This document shows positions 1 through 31,724 of a stretch of 31,724 nt of DNA, one piece after another; position 1 is the stretch's first letter; each line of letters starts with the position of its first letter. The stretch comes from Thermomicrobiales bacterium (GTDB taxonomy: Bacteria; Chloroflexota; Chloroflexia; Thermomicrobiales; JALYUS01). The position numbers were made by a program, and so were the translations under genes. Below the pieces are notes generated by a model that had not been told where the DNA came from, did no database searches, and was given only the letters and a program-made list of their open reading frames with translations. The DNA lies in assembly GCA_038238655.1 (NCBI GenBank), contig JBBSFO010000001.1, forward strand, positions 1 to 31,724. The letters are read 5' to 3'.

Positions 1-1373
1 GCCTTCGCCCCAAGACAGGTATTGAGTTGTACCGGTGTGACGATCGCACCGTAATAATTGAGCAACATCGCTGTCGCGGTGACTGCGCATCCGAACCGAC
101 CAATCGTATCGCCGCTCGACTGCATGATGACACTACGCCACGCCGGATCATTCTGACTGAAGACCGGCAGACCGCAATTGACGCCGCCTGCCGGTGCGGC
201 GGGCGCGGCCGGTGCGGCGTCGCTGGCGGTGAGCGGAAAGGCGAGTTCTTCCGTCGCCCCGGAATGAATGTCTACCGCGATCTGCCGTGGAACGCCCGGA
301 TCCGTAGTGACCGCAGACGTTTGCCCTGAGCCCGTAGCGCGCGTGCCCTGATCGGTCGGCGACGACGTGCGCGTGACGCTGGCGAAGATGACGCTCTGGT
401 TGTCCTGCGCCCAGCAAAGCGGTTGCGTGGTCGAACCATAGAAACCGTCGGGCCGCAGTTCGGGCGGCGCGGCGACCTTGCGCGCTTGTCCGCCGATTTC
501 GGCAACCCAGAGTTCGAGCTGACTCTGGCTTGCGGCGGCCTGCTGGTCGTTGAAACGCAAAAACGCGATCTGCTTATTGTCCGGTGACCATGACGGCCGA
601 ACAAGCCAGAGACCGCGTGGGACACTGGCGAGTTCCTGCCGCTGGGCTGGATTCGCGACATCGAGCGACCAGAGATGCGCGTTGTCGAGTGCCTCGTTGC
701 CTGCAGTCACATAAACGAGGTGCGTGCCGTCGGGGGAAAGCGACAGAAGCGACGAAAAGAGCGGCGACAACGTATCGGCAGGTTCGGCGCGCAAAATACG
801 CACGTCCGACGCATCGCCGTCCGAAATGCGAATAGCGGTCGTTGCGTCATCACTGTAGAGATCCACGACTTTGGTTGATTCACTTGCGCATTCCGCCGTG
901 CGTTGCGGCACCGGGGCGACGTGGCGGCGGCGCACCGCGAATATCCCGACCGTACCGGCGATCAGCAGAACGCCAACGGCGATCAGCGCAAACTGCTGCC
1001 ACCCGAGGCGGCGCTTCGCCCGAGACTTCCCCGTCGCAGCTGCCGTCGTGCTCGTCAGTCGTACGGAGAATCGTGCTTCGGCTGCAGCATTCGCACCATC
1101 CCCCGCCGCCCGCACCGTCAGGACGAGGTCCGCCGCCGGTGCACCGACCGGCGGCGCGAGCAGGAGCGTCGCCGTCGCCTGCCCGCCCGCCGCGACACTT
1201 AAGGTAGGCGGCAACAAAGTCGCCCATGCCGCATCAACACCACGAACACTGAGTGCGTACTCCGCCGGTTCGGGGGAATCATGGGTGAGGACGGCGGTGA
1301 GCAGGATCGTACCGCCCGCCTTTACCTCGGATTGATCGGCGGAAAGTGTCAGTGTAGGAGGGGACGTTGCCAA
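1..1373 (-). CDS. Partial (3'-truncated) bitopic membrane protein: Ig-like domain, TM helix, TolB/PD40-like beta-propeller, Peptidase C39-like domain
   Basis: Not in the ORF track. Manual translation of the - strand from TTG at 1373 (GGGGG 7 nt upstream) is open to the window edge, about 457 aa: MATSPPTLTLSADQSEVKAGG...; TM FALIAVGVLLIAGTVGIFAV (nt 933-992); LSPDG and WSPD propeller motifs; FSQNDPAW...IGRFGCAVTATAMLLNYYG (Q-x-D-x-x-W and GC motifs of C39-like peptidases, Cys at nt 87-89). Confidence 0.85.
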   Translation of the reverse strand, partial: MATSPPTLTLSADQSEVKAGGTILLTAVLTHDSPEPAEYALSVRGVDAAWATLLPPTLSVAAGGQATATLLLAPPVGAPAADLVLTVRAAGDGANAAAEARFSVRLTSTTAAATGKSRAKRRLGWQQFALIAVGVLLIAGTVGIFAVRRRHVAPVPQRTAECASESTKVVDLYSDDATTAIRISDGDASDVRILRAEPADTLSPLFSSLLSLSPDGTHLVYVTAGNEALDNAHLWSLDVANPAQRQELASVPRGLWLVRPSWSPDNKQIAFLRFNDQQAAASQSQLELWVAEIGGQARKVAAPPELRPDGFYGSTTQPLCWAQDNQSVIFASVTRTSSPTDQGTRATGSGQTSAVTTDPGVPRQIAVDIHSGATEELAFPLTASDAAPAAPAAPAGGVNCGLPVFSQNDPAWRSVIMQSSGDTIGRFGCAVTATAMLLNYYGAIVTPVQLNTCLGAK

Positions 1374-1883
1374 CCTGAGACCCCCGGAAAACGCACCCCA
1401 CACCGGGGGCAAACAAGACAAGACACCCGCACGGCGAGCATTGACCATTCAACTACCGATCCGACACAATCGGATCACACGGATCACTGACTGCGTCGGT
1501 TCAACGACGCGTGGGCGTGCATCACGGTTCGGAGACGCCTCTGCAGGACAGGGCGCGTCTTGTCCGGGCCACCTCAACGTTGCAATACATGAACAAATTA
1601 GGTGGATAAGCAGCAAAATCTTCTTAGACTGATGTACAATGAAACTGACGTTTACGAGGCGACACGGGGATGTTGCGATCGTGGGGAGTATTGTTCCGGC
1701 TGCATGCATTTGGTATCTTCTCTATACAAGTGAATAATCACATCATGAGGAGAATAGGCAGTATAGAAAACGGTGGCGGGAGAGACGTACGTAGTCGCGG
1801 CGGCGACGGGGCGCGAGGTGGGGAAACGTCTGCGTGCGTTGTCTACAATCACGAAGTGGCTGTTCGACGGGGGAGGGGGACGT
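1374..1883. promoter_or_regulatory. Divergent promoter region between the membrane peptidase gene and the SARP/BTAD regulator
   Basis: 510-nt non-coding gap between divergent genes. AT-rich stretch at about 1580-1770 with -10-like hexamers TACAAT (1635-1640) and TATACA (1723-1728). No convincing -35 seen. Confidence 0.5.
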
Positions 1884-2972
1884 ATGGGCTCGTTGGAAAT
1901 CCGCGTGTTCGGATCGTTGCGGTTGCAAGACCGTGAAAGTGGTCAAATCCGCCCGCTGAACGGGAAGGTCCGAGATCTCTTCTCCTACCTTCTCATCGCG
2001 CGCGAGGTCGCGCATTCGCGCGAACAGCTTGCGGGCATCTTTTGGGGCGACCGTGACAGCGAGAAAGCTCGCCATTGCCTTAATACCACGTTGTGGCGGT
2101 TGAACCGTTCACTTGCGCCGAATGGCGCGAGCAATCACCTTCGGATCGGCGCATACCATATCGGCTTCAACCTGTCCAACGAGTGCTGGATTGATGTCGT
2201 CGAGTTCGAAACGCGATTCAACTGGGCCGAAGCGGCCGGTGATGTGCCGCCGGAGCAGCGCGCTCTCTTCTATAGCCAGGCGGTGGCGTTCTACGATGGC
2301 GACCTGCTCACCGATTGCTATGAAGACTGGTGTGTCATCGAGCGTGAACGACTGCGTTGTTTGTACTCGCGCGCCTTGAAGTGGTTGATTACCTATCACA
2401 TTTCTCGCCGCGATTATGCTCCCGCAATTGAATACGCGCGCCGCGCACTGGCCTGCGATCCCCTGTATGAGGAAGTGCATCGCCAACTGATGCAGATATA
2501 TCTGGCGATGGGACAACCCAATGACGCCTTGCGTCAATATCGCGCTTGCGAGGATATCGTCAGGCGCGAACTCGCGCAGGAACCGATGCCCGAAACACAG
2601 TCGTTTCTTCCGCTGATTCTGGGCATCACACCGAACATGACTCCCGTTGTACCCGATCAGCCACCCTTCTCCGCTGCCATGTCATATGCGCGCGACACTG
2701 CTACAGCGCTGGTCGCCGCAGCCTCGAACCTTTGCGACGCGGCAGAAACCCTCGAAAGCAGCCACGCGCATATCCAGCGTGTCTCGGCGCTCCTGCAAGA
2801 GACAATCCGAGAGATGACGACAACGATTTCCGCACTCGAAGAAACAGCGGCCTGGCGGCAATGTTCCACGCGACTCGCGCGTGCCAACGACGTCCTCGCG
2901 GCGATCTCCGGTTCCGGTGCGGAAACATTGCGGGCAGTCGTCAGTCCGACACCAATTCGCCTGGTGCAGTGA
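1884..2972 (+). CDS. AfsR/SARP-family transcriptional activator (winged helix + BTAD), about 362 aa
   Basis: LEIRVFGSLRL...KVRDLFSYLL...SREQLAGIFW...ARHCLNTTLWRL (SARP wHTH); FYDGDLLTDCYEDWCVIERERLR...AIEYARRALACDPLYEEVHRQLMQIYLAMGQPNDALRQYRAC (BTAD). ATG 1884 preferred over 1773 because GGAGG lies just upstream. Confidence 0.93.
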   Translation: MGSLEIRVFGSLRLQDRESGQIRPLNGKVRDLFSYLLIAREVAHSREQLAGIFWGDRDSEKARHCLNTTLWRLNRSLAPNGASNHLRIGAYHIGFNLSNECWIDVVEFETRFNWAEAAGDVPPEQRALFYSQAVAFYDGDLLTDCYEDWCVIERERLRCLYSRALKWLITYHISRRDYAPAIEYARRALACDPLYEEVHRQLMQIYLAMGQPNDALRQYRACEDIVRRELAQEPMPETQSFLPLILGITPNMTPVVPDQPPFSAAMSYARDTATALVAAASNLCDAAETLESSHAHIQRVSALLQETIREMTTTISALEETAAWRQCSTRLARANDVLAAISGSGAETLRAVVSPTPIRLVQ

Positions 2973-30992: not shown

Positions 30993-31167
30993 AAGCGGAA
31001 TCGCATGTGCGCGTACAGATCGGAGATATTGTTGGGAAGTATGTACTTGCAACCGCCATACGTATACAATCGCTAGCACGGTCATTGATGAGCAGTAGCA
31101 CGCGCCGCAACCGAAGCATCGGCATCGTTGGGCGGTCATCCTCGCCTCGGGCGAGAAGGAGTGCACC

Positions 31168-31724
31168 GTGGCTTCCTTCGCTTCACCGCAGCGTCCGGCC
31201 CGGAAGCCTGCGGACCTGACCGCCGCTCCCTGGACGATCGAAATGTCATCCCCTGCTGCTGACCCTGACGCTCAGCCATCTCTCATGGAGCCCGTTACAC
31301 GGGGGCAGAACAACGTTGCCACTCCCCGCCCGCTGGTCCCGATCCCGGTCTTCCGCCCCGATACGAAGCAGTCTGCGGCCCCGGCGCTGTCGCCCACAGC
31401 GGAAGGGACGCCGCATGCCGACGCGCCGGACCCGGCACGGGAAGGTGTCCGGGGCATGGCCCAGGGGCGGCGAGCGGTGAAGCAGGCCGGATCGCCCACA
31501 GCGGGAACACGGATGCATGCGGGTGGCGCGCTGCCGATCCAGCGGAAGAACACGACCGGTCTGCCCGATGCGCTCAAGGCGGGGGTGGAGGCGTTGTCGG
31601 GGATCATGCTGGACGACGTGCGGGTACGGTACAACTCGGCGAAAGCGGGGGAGATGGGCGCGCTGGCGTACGCGCACGGGACGGAGATCCACGTGGGGCC
31701 GGGGCAGGAGGAGCACCTGGCGCA
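31168..31724 (+). CDS. Partial (3'-truncated) second DUF4157 effector-type protein
   Basis: Not in the ORF track. GTG 31168 follows AAGGAG and is open to the edge: MASFASPQRPARKP...PIQRKNTTGLPDALKAGVEALSGIMLDDVRVRYNSAK...ALAYAHGTEIHVGPGQEEHLA(H). Confidence 0.88.
   Translation, partial: MASFASPQRPARKPADLTAAPWTIEMSSPAADPDAQPSLMEPVTRGQNNVATPRPLVPIPVFRPDTKQSAAPALSPTAEGTPHADAPDPAREGVRGMAQGRRAVKQAGSPTAGTRMHAGGALPIQRKNTTGLPDALKAGVEALSGIMLDDVRVRYNSAKAGEMGALAYAHGTEIHVGPGQEEHLA

What the first reader, a model, noticed from the sequence alone, without database searches (positions are those of the whole stretch)
1..31724. Candidate kinase-gated, membrane-docked contractile injection system
Seen: a full CIS structural set (sheath, 3 tubes, tube-initiator-LysM, spike, PAAR, gp25, baseplate J, gpI, two Pvc16, ATPase), with an FHA domain on the gpI subunit, an operonic membrane Ser/Thr kinase, a protein-methyltransferase-like gene, three DUF4157 proteins and a divergent membrane peptidase. 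Established: Thr phosphorylation via PpkA/Fha1/PppA gates the Pseudomonas H1-T6SS; Streptomyces CIS are cytoplasmic and need a membrane adaptor; Afp/PVC-type eCIS are released free particles with tail fibres. Inference: this particle may be held inside the cell and recruited to the membrane or fired by phosphorylation, i.e. T6SS-style post-translational control on an eCIS-type chassis without TssJLM. I cannot tell from the sequence whether this combination has been described.
Basis: partly seen in the sequence, partly recalled or inferred. Interest (0 to 1): 0.88.

Follow-up and report, generated by a model that had tools for sequence, protein, structure and literature searches.

The report
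Kinase-wired cytoplasmic phage-tail injection machine
An uncultured soil Chloroflexota bacterium encodes a Streptomyces-type intracellular phage-tail "syringe" whose baseplate carries a phosphothreonine-reading domain, with a membrane protein kinase encoded directly behind it, a conserved pairing that suggests an untested phosphorylation switch for docking or firing the machine.

Summary
The window, a whole MAG contig, carries a complete contractile injection system (CIS). Its sheath and baseplate proteins are closest to the cytoplasmic Streptomyces coelicolor CIS (PDB 8bky/9gtp, E 3e-174 and 2e-138).

The Cis12/gpI wedge protein has an N-terminal FHA domain on a disordered linker of about 45 residues. 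Its stop codon overlaps (ATGA) the start of a single-pass membrane Hanks kinase built as kinase, FHA-like domain, Ig domains, TM helix and ectodomain.

- **Pairing:** of 26 other FHA-Cis12 loci that could be evaluated, 25 have such a kinase within 6 kb downstream. Of 21 FHA-less loci, 20 have none.
- **Phylogeny:** on a Cis11 tree the trait needs only one change, so this is one conserved sub-lineage, not repeated convergence.
- **Other phyla:** a kinase also follows gpI in a Gemmatimonadales MAG and in Calidithermus terrae.
- **Residues:** the pThr-binding residues of the Cis12 FHA and the kinase catalytic residues are conserved.
- **Not conserved:** the methyltransferase sits in a variable cargo slot. 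No phosphatase or tail-fibre gene was found in or beside the related loci checked.

Cryo-ET papers on this lineage mention neither the kinase nor the FHA domain. Control by phosphorylation is inferred, not shown. This scan already reported the same theme in at least 7 other genomes.

The parts
3..1448 (-). Divergent membrane protein, cut by the contig end: N-terminal beta-rich part, TM helix at aa 148-172, PD40/TolB-like repeats and the start of a C39-like peptidase domain. Not shown to belong to the CIS.
   Evidence: Pfam (PD40 E 9.6e-6; Peptidase_C39_2 20 bits, below the 24-bit cut-off); translation; TM. BLASTP finds no similarity to the kinase's Ig region (E 1.4).
1773..2972 (+). BTAD/SARP-type transcriptional activator with TPR; candidate regulator of the locus.
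   Evidence: Pfam (BTAD E 2.3e-22). BTAD genes also flank related loci both with and without a kinase. BTAD is listed as an eCIS regulator domain in PMC8213781.
3086..3988 (+). Pvc16/Cis16-like tail terminator (cap) protein, copy a.
   Evidence: Pfam (Pvc16_N E 2.5e-40); conserved at 42-52% identity in relatives.
3985..6009 (+). Cis15/Afp15-like AAA+ ATPase with an N-terminal winged-helix domain.
   Evidence: Pfam (AAA E 6e-25, WHD E 3e-19); 47-57% identity in relatives.
5978..7609 (+). Methyltransf_28 (MidA/NDUFAF7-like) methyltransferase with a TPR tail, first gene of the variable cargo slot. The true start may lie further downstream.
   Evidence: Pfam (29.5 bits, cut-off 23.3). Absent from the same slot in four relatives. 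One homologue (35% identity, E 1e-70) lies between gpI and a kinase in L088.
7770..10145 (+). DUF4157/eCIS_core-led putative effector (HExxH at aa 147), in the cargo slot.
   Evidence: Pfam (eCIS_core E 2.5e-9); motif. The same slot in relatives holds other DUF4157-led proteins (Het-C, OmpA, Gly-zipper, M15/PG-binding).
10194..10760 (+). 188-aa protein of unknown function behind the effector. No family match above threshold; not found in relatives.
   Evidence: Pfam; tblastn (no hits).
10813..11646 (+). Second Pvc16_N protein, with a C-terminal CarboxypepD_reg-like beta-sandwich.
   Evidence: Pfam (E 1.6e-26; 2.9e-8); conserved directly upstream of the sheath gene in relatives.
11887..13455 (+). 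Contractile sheath (Cis2).
   Evidence: Pfam. Full-length match to the S. coelicolor CIS sheath, PDB 8bky/9gtp, E 3.4e-174. The nearest better-known systems score far lower (tCIS 1e-55, Pvc2 5e-55).
13561..15730 (+). Three gp19-type tube genes (13561-14013, 14182-14628, 15308-15730) and a conserved 147-aa unknown (14632-15075).
   Evidence: Pfam. Relatives have two tube genes plus the orf147 homologue (60-76% identity).
15735..21920 (+). 2061-aa cysteine-free protein, 46% P/S/T/A, with a DUF4157 domain (HExxH at aa 1869) near the C-terminus. It is the largest ORF and lies directly upstream of the baseplate genes. Resembles the Tme tape-measure-related effector by position and features.
   Evidence: Translation; Pfam (eCIS_core E 9.8e-13); composition. 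Genes with DUF4157 and very different lengths occupy this position in relatives. Tme description: PMC11126660.
21933..22598 (+). Tube initiator (Cis7) with LysM.
   Evidence: Pfam (CIS_tube E 3e-30, LysM E 1e-7).
22585..25141 (+). Spike VgrG (22585-24273), PAAR tip (24276-24719) and gp25-like sheath initiator (24734-25141).
   Evidence: Pfam.
25154..27151 (+). Baseplate J / Cis11 wedge protein.
   Evidence: Pfam; PDB 9gtp Cis11 E 2.1e-138 over residues 1-642.
27175..28083 (+). FHA-Cis12 fusion: FHA domain (aa 1-102, nt 27175-27480), disordered linker (aa 103-150) and P2 gpI/Cis12 wedge domain (aa 151-302).
   Evidence: Pfam. PDB matches: FHA to GarA/OdhI/FhaA; gpI to 9gtp chain E, which is 190 aa with no FHA (E 1.4e-10). 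AF2 model: pLDDT above 90 for the FHA, below 50 for residues 105-131. Foldseek. pThr-binding residues in 121 homologues: R31 in 120, S45 in 108, H48 in 121, N67 in 96.
28080..30992 (+). Single-pass membrane Hanks-type Ser/Thr kinase. Domains: kinase (aa 12-273), Pro-rich linker, degenerate FHA (aa 392-470), cytoplasmic Ig-like domains (aa 525-711), TM helix (aa 725-743, nt 30252-30308), ectodomain with two Ig-like repeats and a Pro/Ala tail (aa 744-970).
   Evidence: Translation; Pfam; ATGA overlap. K41, HRD, N145, DFG and SPE are conserved in 21-23 of 23 orthologues, and most full-length ones have one TM near aa 700. A Thr in the activation loop is conserved.
31168..31724 (+). Start of a third DUF4157/eCIS_core protein, cut by the contig end.
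   Evidence: Pfam (E 5.1e-5, 23.8 bits, cut-off 22).

Best explanation
The window encodes a complete type IId, Streptomyces-like cytoplasmic contractile injection system with no tail fibre. It belongs to a Chloroflexota-centred sub-lineage that carries a built-in phosphothreonine module.

**Shown**
- Each of the six baseplate wedges would carry one Cis12, if the copy number matches the S. coelicolor structure. Here Cis12 has a canonical FHA domain on a flexible tether of about 45 residues.
- The next gene is translationally coupled and encodes a receptor-like single-pass membrane Ser/Thr kinase.
- The kinase's cytoplasmic Ig-like domains and TM helix resemble the standalone Ig-TM proteins that follow gpI in kinase-less relatives.

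**Inferred mechanism**
1. Particles assemble free in the cytoplasm.
2. A signal, probably sensed by the ectodomain, activates the kinase, which phosphorylates itself on Thr.
3. The tethered Cis12 FHA domains bind those pThr sites, or pThr sites the kinase makes on another CIS protein.
4. This draws the baseplate to the membrane or licenses its rearrangement. The sheath then contracts and drives the DUF4157-led cargo into or through the producer's envelope.

On this reading the kinase takes the role that CisA plays in Streptomyces.
For: - **Lineage:** sheath and Cis11 match the CIS-Sc structures at E 3e-174 and 2e-138. Cis12 of CIS-Sc is 190 aa and lacks an FHA domain.
- **Localisation in relatives (literature):** Chloroflexota and Deinococcota CIS of this clade are intracellular and unattached, contract on lysis and have no close cisA homologue (PMC12998442). 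CIS-Sc needs the membrane protein CisA to fire (PMC12237407).
- **Spread of the fusion:** 738 protein clusters match FHA-Cis12 at E<=1e-5, and all 120 listed carry both FHA and Tail_P2_I.
- **Linkage to the kinase:** 17 of 26 evaluable FHA-Cis12 loci have the kinase directly behind gpI. Six more have it 1-2.2 kb on and two 3.4-5.5 kb on. Of 21 FHA-less loci, 20 have none.
- **Phylogeny:** the trait maps to one side of a branch on a 44-locus Cis11 tree. It is retained down to about 40% Cis11 identity.
- **Functional residues:** the FHA pThr-binding residues are conserved. So are the kinase catalytic residues, an activation-loop Thr and the single TM.
- **Gene coupling:** ATGA overlap with no terminator between the genes.
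- **Tether:** the AF2 model shows an FHA domain on a disordered linker.
- **Other phyla:** a homologous kinase also follows gpI in Calidithermus terrae (Deinococcota) and in a Gemmatimonadales MAG.
Against: - There is no experimental or expression evidence. No RNA run holds the locus.
- The structure-based binding test gave no verdict.
- The association traces to a single evolutionary event, so it is co-inheritance rather than repeated independent gain.
- One FHA-Cis12 locus (L047) has no kinase within 10 kb.
- The Gemmatimonadales locus has the kinase but no FHA on either protein. The physical link could therefore run through the Ig domains rather than pThr-FHA.
- The kinase's own FHA domain has lost its Arg and Asn in this window.
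- No PP2C phosphatase lies in the five related loci checked, so it is unclear how the signal would be reversed.
- Cryo-ET of relatives showed only unattached particles in intact cells. Docking has never been seen (PMC12998442).
Confidence: 0.5

Rival explanations
1. Phosphorylation controls assembly or stability of the particle, not membrane docking. The kinase phosphorylates a CIS component, such as the 2061-aa Ser/Thr/Pro-rich Tme-like protein, the Cis12 linker or Cis11. The Cis12 FHA domain then binds it within the baseplate, as PpkA-phosphorylated Fha1 promotes T6SS assembly.
For: - The 2061-aa protein next to the baseplate genes is 46% P/S/T/A and disordered, so it offers many possible acceptor sites.
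- In the T6SS pathway the FHA protein is itself the kinase substrate (established knowledge of PpkA/Fha1).
- The conserved FHA-kinase linkage fits this reading equally well.
Against: - The Cis12 linker has no conserved Thr.
- The Tme-like gene varies from about 300 to 2061 aa between relatives, with no conserved Ser/Thr block identified.
- The conserved TM helix and ectodomain of the kinase point to a membrane-located event.
Confidence: 0.2
2. The kinase mainly controls transcription of the locus through the neighbouring BTAD/SARP regulator, in the manner of AfsK-AfsR or PknH-EmbR. The FHA domain on Cis12 would be a side branch or feedback sensor.
For: - A BTAD regulator lies in the window.
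- In at least seven relatives a BTAD gene lies on the opposite strand 1-2 kb beyond the kinase.
- SARP regulators are known Ser/Thr-kinase substrates (established knowledge of AfsR and EmbR). EmbR is among the structural neighbours of this FHA domain.
- PMC8213781 lists BTAD as an eCIS regulator domain.
Against: - BTAD genes also flank kinase-less, FHA-less loci (L073, L075-L077).
- The BTAD protein here has no FHA domain.
- What is inherited together with the kinase is an FHA domain on a structural wedge protein, not on the regulator.
Confidence: 0.1
3. The kinase-Ig-TM protein is not a regulator. It would be a Sco4256-type particle-associated protein, either cargo/toxin or a fibre substitute that binds a target surface, on a particle released by lysis like an eCIS.
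For: - Sco4256 (Ig-like domain, TM region, variable C-terminal domain) was detected in all three purified S. coelicolor particle preparations, was proposed as a toxin, and has homologues in Roseiflexus CIS loci (PMC10020575).
- The kinase's Ig/TM part is similar to the standalone Ig-TM proteins behind gpI in kinase-less loci (E 1e-14 to 1e-20).
- The protein-atlas search places this part among COG1470/FixG_C-like clusters (a lead only).
Against: - A kinase domain N-terminal to a single TM helix must face the producer's cytoplasm. The paired FHA domain on Cis12 makes sense only as a reader of that kinase's product.
- No tail fibre, lysis cassette or signal peptide was seen.
- Relatives' particles contract on lysis rather than staying extended like released eCIS (PMC12998442).
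Confidence: 0.1
4. The adjacency is incidental. A generic Chloroflexota membrane kinase happens to sit behind the CIS operon and has no functional link to it.
For: Chloroflexota genomes carry many kinase and FHA genes. In 130 of 401 genomes the query matched at E<=1e-10, mostly through unrelated FHA proteins.
Against: - The position is conserved in 25 of 26 evaluable loci across several families.
- The genes overlap (ATGA).
- The arrangement persists down to about 40% Cis11 identity.
- A kinase also follows gpI in two other phyla.
Confidence: 0.03

Closest known systems
Streptomyces coelicolor cytoplasmic CIS (CIS-Sc, subtype IId; PDB 8bky, 9gtp) with its membrane factor CisA (PMC12237407)
   Same: - Same core gene set and near-identical order.
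- Sheath, Cis11 and Cis12 are the best PDB matches (E 3e-174, 2e-138 and 1.4e-10).
- No tail fibre and no classical tape-measure gene.
- A single-pass membrane protein encoded in the cluster is, or is proposed to be, needed to bring the free particle to the membrane.
   Different: - Cis12 of CIS-Sc is 190 aa with no FHA domain.
- As described in PMC12237407, CisA has a disordered cytoplasmic N-terminus and a solute-binding-like ectodomain, with no kinase, FHA or Ig domains.
- Here the membrane protein is an enzyme, so coupling would depend on a signal and on phosphorylation.
Chloroflexota/Deinococcota intracellular CIS (Roseiflexus, Thermogemmatispora, Calidithermus, Deinococcus; Gaisin et al. 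2026, PMC12998442)
   Same: - Almost certainly the same lineage. Related loci come from Roseiflexaceae, Chloroflexaceae, Ktedonobacteraceae and Thermomicrobia MAGs, and a Calidithermus terrae contig shows gpI followed by a kinase.
- That paper reports particles that are cytoplasmic and unattached, and the absence of a close cisA homologue.
   Different: - The main text of that paper contains no instance of 'kinase', 'FHA' or 'phosphoryl'. The module described here is not part of the published description.
- This window comes from a soil or sediment MAG, not a hot-spring organism.
T6SS threonine phosphorylation pathway (PpkA-PppA-Fha1 in Pseudomonas H1-T6SS; PpkA-TssL-Fha in Agrobacterium)
   Same: A membrane Hanks-type kinase and an FHA protein encoded inside a contractile-machine gene cluster, giving post-translational control of a phage-tail-like weapon.
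   Different: - No TssJLM membrane complex, TssBC, ClpV or TagQRST.
- No PppA-like phosphatase in the related loci checked.
- The FHA domain is fused to a baseplate wedge subunit rather than being a free scaffold protein.
- The kinase ectodomain is Ig-like, not von Willebrand A.
Sco4256 family of CIS-IId-associated membrane proteins (Vladimirov et al. 2023, PMC10020575)
   Same: Ig-like (pilus-chaperone-like) domain, TM region and variable C-terminal domain, encoded behind the baseplate genes. Homologues are reported in Roseiflexus CIS loci. Kinase-less relatives here have one or two such standalone proteins behind gpI.
   Different: - Here a kinase and an FHA domain precede the Ig-TM part in one polypeptide.
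- Direct homology of this window's protein to Sco4256 itself was not tested, because no Sco4256 sequence was available.
Actinobacterial kinase-FHA pairs (PknB-GarA/OdhI, PknB-FhaA, PknH-EmbR)
   Same: The Cis12 FHA domain is closest in sequence and fold to GarA, OdhI, FhaA and EmbR. These bind pThr made by membrane Hanks kinases.
   Different: Those FHA domains sit on metabolic, cell-wall or transcription regulators, not on a phage-tail baseplate subunit.

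Membership tests
Type IId CIS (CIS-Sc-like, cytoplasmic CIS) | Core set: sheath, tube, LysM tube initiator, VgrG, PAAR, gp25, Cis11 (baseplate J), Cis12 (gpI), AAA+ ATPase, Cis16 cap. | tested here: met
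   Pfam; all present on one strand.
Type IId CIS (CIS-Sc-like, cytoplasmic CIS) | Closest relatives among characterised systems are the Streptomyces IId particles. | tested here: met
   Sheath against 8bky/9gtp E 3.4e-174, compared with 1e-55 or weaker for tCIS, PVC, AlgoCIS and Afp. Cis11 against 9gtp E 2.1e-138. No formal tree with dbeCIS reference sequences was built.
Type IId CIS (CIS-Sc-like, cytoplasmic CIS) | No tail-fibre (Afp13-like) gene. | tested here: inconclusive
   No fibre domain in the window, but the contig ends 730 bp after the kinase. In relatives with longer flanks, the genes behind the kinase that were annotated (precomputed Pfam) or mapped by tblastn are unrelated genes or a BTAD regulator, not fibres. 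A divergent fibre cannot be ruled out by Pfam alone.
Type IId CIS (CIS-Sc-like, cytoplasmic CIS) | Particles stay in the producer's cytoplasm and fire there. | not testable with these tools
   Shown by cryo-ET only for relatives (PMC12998442; PMC12237407).
Type IId CIS (CIS-Sc-like, cytoplasmic CIS) | CisA membrane adaptor encoded in the cluster. | not tested
   No CisA sequence was available for a search. No window protein shows CisA's described solute-binding-like ectodomain in Pfam. PMC12998442 reports no close homologue in Roseiflexus.
T6SS threonine phosphorylation pathway (PpkA/PppA/Fha1) | Membrane Hanks-type Ser/Thr kinase encoded in the cluster. | tested here: met
T6SS threonine phosphorylation pathway (PpkA/PppA/Fha1) | FHA-domain partner with an intact pThr pocket. 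| tested here: met
   Here the domain is fused to Cis12, not free-standing.
T6SS threonine phosphorylation pathway (PpkA/PppA/Fha1) | Cognate PP2C phosphatase (PppA) in the cluster. | tested here: not met
   No PP2C domain in the window. None of the 6-9 PP2C_2 hits per genome lies in the CIS loci of five relatives.
T6SS threonine phosphorylation pathway (PpkA/PppA/Fha1) | T6SS core: TssJLM membrane complex, TssB/C sheath, ClpV. | tested here: not met
   No such Pfam families. The sheath is of the phage/eCIS type.
Released eCIS (Afp/PVC type) | Tail fibres, and a sheath and baseplate closest to Afp/PVC. | tested here: not met
   No fibre gene found. Pvc2 and Afp sheaths score more than 100 orders of magnitude weaker than CIS-Sc.
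Sco4256-like CIS membrane proteins | Ig-like N-domain, TM region and variable C-terminal domain, encoded behind the baseplate genes of IId loci. | tested here: inconclusive
   The architecture is met for aa 500-970 of the kinase and for standalone homologues in kinase-less loci. Sequence homology to Sco4256 itself was not tested. The word-based search did not reach actinobacterial proteins.

The most novel reading that the evidence does not exclude
In the Chloroflexota, Deinococcota and Gemmatimonadota branch of cytoplasmic CIS, a receptor-like Ser/Thr kinase fused to the ancestral Sco4256-type Ig-TM protein replaces CisA as the trigger. An extracellular or envelope signal causes Thr autophosphorylation. 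Six FHA domains tethered to the baseplate wedges capture the pThr sites and dock the particle at the membrane. Docking fires it, causing regulated death of the producer or of its filament neighbour. This would be the first phosphorylation-gated contractile machine outside T6SS, and the first case of a signalling reader domain built into a phage-tail baseplate subunit.
Probability: 0.35. Interest if true: 0.85.

Novelty: new variant of a known kind. Interest (0 to 1): 0.72.

Why it matters
How free-floating cytoplasmic CIS are told when and where to fire is an open question. In Streptomyces the answer involves CisA. The 2026 cryo-ET paper on Roseiflexus, Calidithermus and Deinococcus states that the mechanism must differ there, because no close cisA homologue exists.

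The conserved FHA-Cis12 and membrane-kinase pair is a concrete candidate. It can be tested with point mutations in the kinase catalytic Lys and in the FHA Arg/Ser pocket. It occurs in cultured organisms that have already been imaged: a Calidithermus contig shows it, and Roseiflexus-like genomes carry up to four kinase paralogues.

If confirmed, threonine-phosphorylation control, known only for T6SS, would extend to a separate branch of contractile machines that lacks the TssJLM complex. It would also show that the membrane-side partner of cytoplasmic CIS can be an enzyme-linked receptor.

Tried and rejected
- **Complex prediction** of FHA-Cis12 with kinase residues 290-735 gave no verdict: score 0.00, folded without alignments. 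It counts neither for nor against binding.
- **The search for homologous proteins** with the kinase's Ig-TM-ectodomain part (aa 480-970) returned only six relatives and did not reach Streptomyces Sco4256. The protein-atlas search gave COG1470/FixG_C-like clusters, which are leads only.
- **Shared Ig module.** BLASTP does not support this (best E 1.4). Fold-level similarity was not tested.
- **Methyltransferase as a conserved CIS component.** Rejected for the module as a whole: it is absent from the equivalent slot in four relatives. It does recur sporadically (see Noticed in passing).
- **Dedicated PP2C phosphatase.** None lies in the five related loci.
- **Expression evidence.** Only DNA runs from one soil/sediment study hold the locus.
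- **Deinococcota genomes.** Using L090 as a handle to search them failed because the record is not held.
- **Rooting the Cis11 tree** with Streptomyces sequences was not possible with the sequences available. Gain and loss of the FHA/kinase module therefore cannot be told apart.
- **Literature searches** for FHA or kinase together with eCIS, CIS or cytoplasmic CIS found only T6SS work. Subscription-only papers were not searched.

Full report
**What is in the window**

The window is the whole 31.7-kb contig C1 of a 969-contig MAG that is 91% complete. GC content is about 61%. Its nearest public relatives are Chloroflexota/Chloroflexia MAGs, with 90% and 83% identity for the FHA-gpI protein. Only DNA runs from one soil/sediment study hold the sequence.

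Coordinates and E-values are given under parts. From tube gene 3 to the kinase (15308-30992) the genes are 2-23 bp apart or overlap. The gpI stop and the kinase start share ATGA at 28080-28083, and no terminator-like site follows.

**Which kind of CIS**

The sheath matches the S. coelicolor CIS sheath (PDB 8bky/9gtp) over its full length at E 3.4e-174. The thylakoid-anchored CIS, PVC, AlgoCIS and Afp sheaths score 1e-55 or weaker. Baseplate J matches Cis11 of 9gtp at E 2.1e-138. The gpI half of the fusion matches 9gtp chain E, the 190-aa Cis12, at E 1.4e-10 and by fold.

This is therefore a subtype IId, CIS-Sc-like system, not an Afp/PVC-type one. Three papers frame what that means.

- CIS-Sc has no fibres and no tape-measure gene, floats free in the cytoplasm, and needs the single-pass membrane protein CisA to contract (PMC12237407).
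- Gaisin et al. 2026 imaged intracellular, unattached particles of the same clade in Roseiflexus, Calidithermus and Deinococcus. They state that the firing mechanism may differ because no close cisA homologue exists (PMC12998442).
- The main text of that paper contains no instance of 'kinase', 'FHA' or 'phosphoryl'.

**The FHA-Cis12 fusion**

The fusion has three parts.

- Residues 1-102 form an FHA domain (Pfam E 4.7e-19). It is closest in sequence and fold to GarA, OdhI, FhaA and EmbR.
- Residues 103-150 are poorly conserved and modelled as disordered, with pLDDT below 50 for residues 105-131.
- Residues 151-302 form the gpI/Cis12 domain.

A protein search found 738 clusters at E<=1e-5. All 120 listed carry both FHA and Tail_P2_I, and the named ones come from Chloroflexaceae, Roseiflexaceae, Ktedonobacteraceae and Thermomicrobia. 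Across 121 aligned homologues the canonical pThr-binding residues are kept: Arg31 in 120, Ser45 in 108, His48 in 121 and Asn67 in 96. The domain looks like a working pThr reader on a flexible tether, one per wedge if the CIS-Sc stoichiometry applies.

**The kinase**

The 970-aa protein has these parts in order:

- a Hanks kinase domain;
- a Pro-rich linker;
- an FHA-like domain;
- Ig-like domains (matches to HYDIN/FixG_C/NPCBM_assoc);
- one TM helix (aa 725-743);
- an ectodomain of about 230 aa with two Ig-like repeats and a Pro/Ala tail.

In 23 orthologues Lys41, HRD, Asn145, DFG and SPE are present in 21-23. A Thr in the activation loop is conserved. Most full-length members have a single TM helix near residue 700.

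The kinase's own FHA domain is canonical (GR, SxxH, NG) in 17 of 23 orthologues. In this window and its closest relative it reads GS and YG.

**Is the pairing conserved?**

I mapped CIS genes by tblastn onto three sets of loci:

- 40 loci fetched from a sample of 401 Chloroflexota genomes;
- loci found through protein identity look-ups;
- the two close relatives.

| Loci with an FHA domain on Cis12 (28) | Count |
|---|---|
| Kinase directly behind gpI | 17 |
| Kinase 1-2.2 kb on (three with a methyltransferase gene between, in Roseiflexus-like loci) | 6 |
| An FHA-Ig-TM protein first, kinase 3.4-5.5 kb on | 2 |
| Contig ends first, not evaluable | 2 |
| Unrelated genes follow (L047) | 1 |

Of 21 loci whose gpI lacks an FHA domain, 20 have no kinase in the 1.4-9 kb available. 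Many of these have instead one or two standalone proteins similar to the kinase's Ig-TM part (E 1e-14 to 1e-20).

On a Cis11 tree of 44 loci, the kinase-less loci form one side of a branch (SH-aLRT 86), and the trait needs only one change. This has two consequences. The loci are kin, so the counts are not independent events. What the data do show is joint retention of both parts down to about 40% Cis11 identity, across several families. The tree is unrooted, so a single gain and a single loss cannot be told apart.

**Beyond Chloroflexota**

- A Gemmatimonadales MAG has an FHA-less gpI overlapped by a kinase-Ig-TM-Big_2 gene that itself has no FHA domain.
- A Calidithermus terrae contig has gpI, cut at the contig start, followed by a homologous kinase with 37-41% identity to the Chloroflexota ones.

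Kinase adjacency is therefore wider than the FHA fusion. The Ig-TM module, not the FHA domain alone, may provide part of the physical link.

**Relation to Sco4256**

Vladimirov et al. describe Sco4256 as an Ig-like (pilus-chaperone-like) domain, a TM region and a variable C-terminal domain. It was present in purified particles. Its BLAST homologues include three R. castenholzii proteins and adjacent Roseiflexus sp. RS-1 proteins in IId loci (PMC10020575).

The kinase's C-terminal two-thirds has this architecture. The simplest reading is that a kinase, usually with an FHA domain, was added to the N-terminus of the ancestral Sco4256-type protein, in parallel with the FHA domain added to Cis12. 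Homology to Sco4256 itself was not tested here (one search did not reach it).

**What is not part of the module**

Between the ATPase gene and the second Pvc16 gene, relatives have 0-6.4 kb of different DUF4157-led genes: Het-C, OmpA-like, Gly-zipper and M15/PG-binding. This is a cargo slot. The window's methyltransferase, 791-aa DUF4157 protein and orf188 sit in it.

No PP2C phosphatase lies in the CIS loci of five relatives, although each genome has 6-9 elsewhere. No tail-fibre gene was seen behind the kinase in relatives with readable flanks.

**Mechanism**

The best-supported reading is a phospho-switch between a membrane receptor kinase and the baseplate, taking the role CisA plays in Streptomyces. 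The steps are: signal, Thr autophosphorylation, capture by the tethered Cis12 FHA domains, docking or licensing of the baseplate, then contraction.

- **Shown:** the domains, their conserved functional residues, the gene coupling, the conservation of the pairing and the lineage.
- **Inferred:** every step involving phosphorylation, binding, localisation and firing.

Rival readings are listed with odds: control of assembly, control of transcription through BTAD, a Sco4256-type cargo or fibre substitute, and chance adjacency. A structure-based binding test gave no verdict.

**Novelty**

Full-text searches combining FHA or kinase with eCIS, CIS or cytoplasmic CIS returned only T6SS papers. The three most relevant CIS papers do not link a Ser/Thr kinase or an FHA domain to the CIS. 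Subscription-only literature was not searched.

The system class is known, and the regulatory module appears undescribed, so I rate it a new variant of a known kind. This scan had already reported the same FHA-Cis12 plus kinase theme in at least seven other genomes. My tests agree with those notes. They add:

- the split on the Cis11 tree;
- the Calidithermus and Gemmatimonadales cases;
- the content of the cargo slot;
- the recurring methyltransferases;
- the finding that the degenerate kinase FHA domain is a local state.

Noticed in passing
window 15735-21920: 2061-aa protein with no cysteine and 46% P/S/T/A, carrying DUF4157 (HExxH at aa 1869) near its C-terminus. It is the largest ORF and lies directly upstream of the baseplate genes. 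It resembles Tme, the tape-measure-related, ~70% disordered DUF4157 effector of S. davawensis (PMC11126660). The gene in this position ranges from about 300 to 2061 aa in relatives. No nuclease or other C-terminal enzyme domain was found.
   Followed up: partly
window 5978-7609; L088 8635-10035; L050 8929-10593; L087 1154-2761: Protein-methyltransferase-like genes of two unrelated families recur in FHA/kinase CIS loci. A homologue of the window's Methyltransf_28+TPR gene (35% identity, E 1e-70) sits between gpI and a kinase in L088. A PKMT-like gene (class I MTase + MethyTransf_Reg + PKMT winged helix) sits between FHA-Cis12 and the first kinase in the Roseiflexus-like loci G295, G207 and L087. 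Most loci have neither.
   Followed up: partly
L050+L085 (G295:C1:2038000-2070000) and L051 (G207): These loci carry tandem paralogues behind FHA-Cis12: three kinase-FHA-Ig-TM genes, then two FHA-Ig proteins and a fourth kinase in G295. G295's single contig is 5,801,598 bp. From memory, that is the size of the Roseiflexus sp. RS-1 genome; this was not verified.
   Followed up: partly
window 29253-29489 (kinase aa 392-470): The kinase's internal FHA domain has lost the pThr-pocket Arg and Asn (GS and YG) in this window and in L003. It is canonical in 17 of 23 orthologues.
   Followed up: yes
L004 883-4460 (Gemmatimonadales MAG JBAIWX010000118.1): gpI without an FHA domain is overlapped by a kinase-Ig-TM-Big_2 gene that also lacks FHA and has DAG in place of DFG. 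A second kinase lies about 4.7 kb further on. This may be a kinase-coupled CIS that does not use FHA.
   Followed up: partly
L090 (Calidithermus terrae QXDL01000413.1, 1429 bp): A gpI fragment (55% identity) is followed 75 bp later by a protein kinase cut by the contig end. The genus was imaged by cryo-ET in PMC12998442. Whether its Cis12 carries an FHA domain could not be read.
   Followed up: partly
L078, L079, L081 (slot between the ATPase and the second Pvc16 gene): The cargo slot of relatives holds DUF4157-led proteins with Het-C (phospholipase-like), OmpA-like, Gly-zipper and M15 peptidase/PG-binding domains. Most of these payloads appear aimed at the cell envelope, which would fit a self-lysis role.
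   Followed up: partly
L039 8966-9819; L003 10906-12864; L087 87-1161; L088 5453-8486: Several relatives have apparent frameshifts or early stops. The L039 kinase is split between frames. The L003 kinase stops at 652 aa, before the TM helix. FHA and gpI are called as two genes in L087. Cis11 and the FHA domain are fragmented in L088. These may be assembly errors or decaying loci; this was not resolved.
   Followed up: no
window 13561-14013: The window has a third gp19 tube paralogue. The relatives examined have two tube genes plus the conserved 147-aa unknown.
   Followed up: no
window 3-1448 (- strand): The left-edge membrane protein (TM at aa 148-172, PD40 repeats, start of a C39-like domain) shows no BLASTP similarity to the kinase's Ig region. 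It was not found in the neighbouring regions of relatives that were mapped.
   Followed up: partly
G000:C674:531-1616: Another contig of the same MAG encodes an open frame of about 900 aa with two FHA-like matches. It may be a further FHA-Ig paralogue.
   Followed up: no
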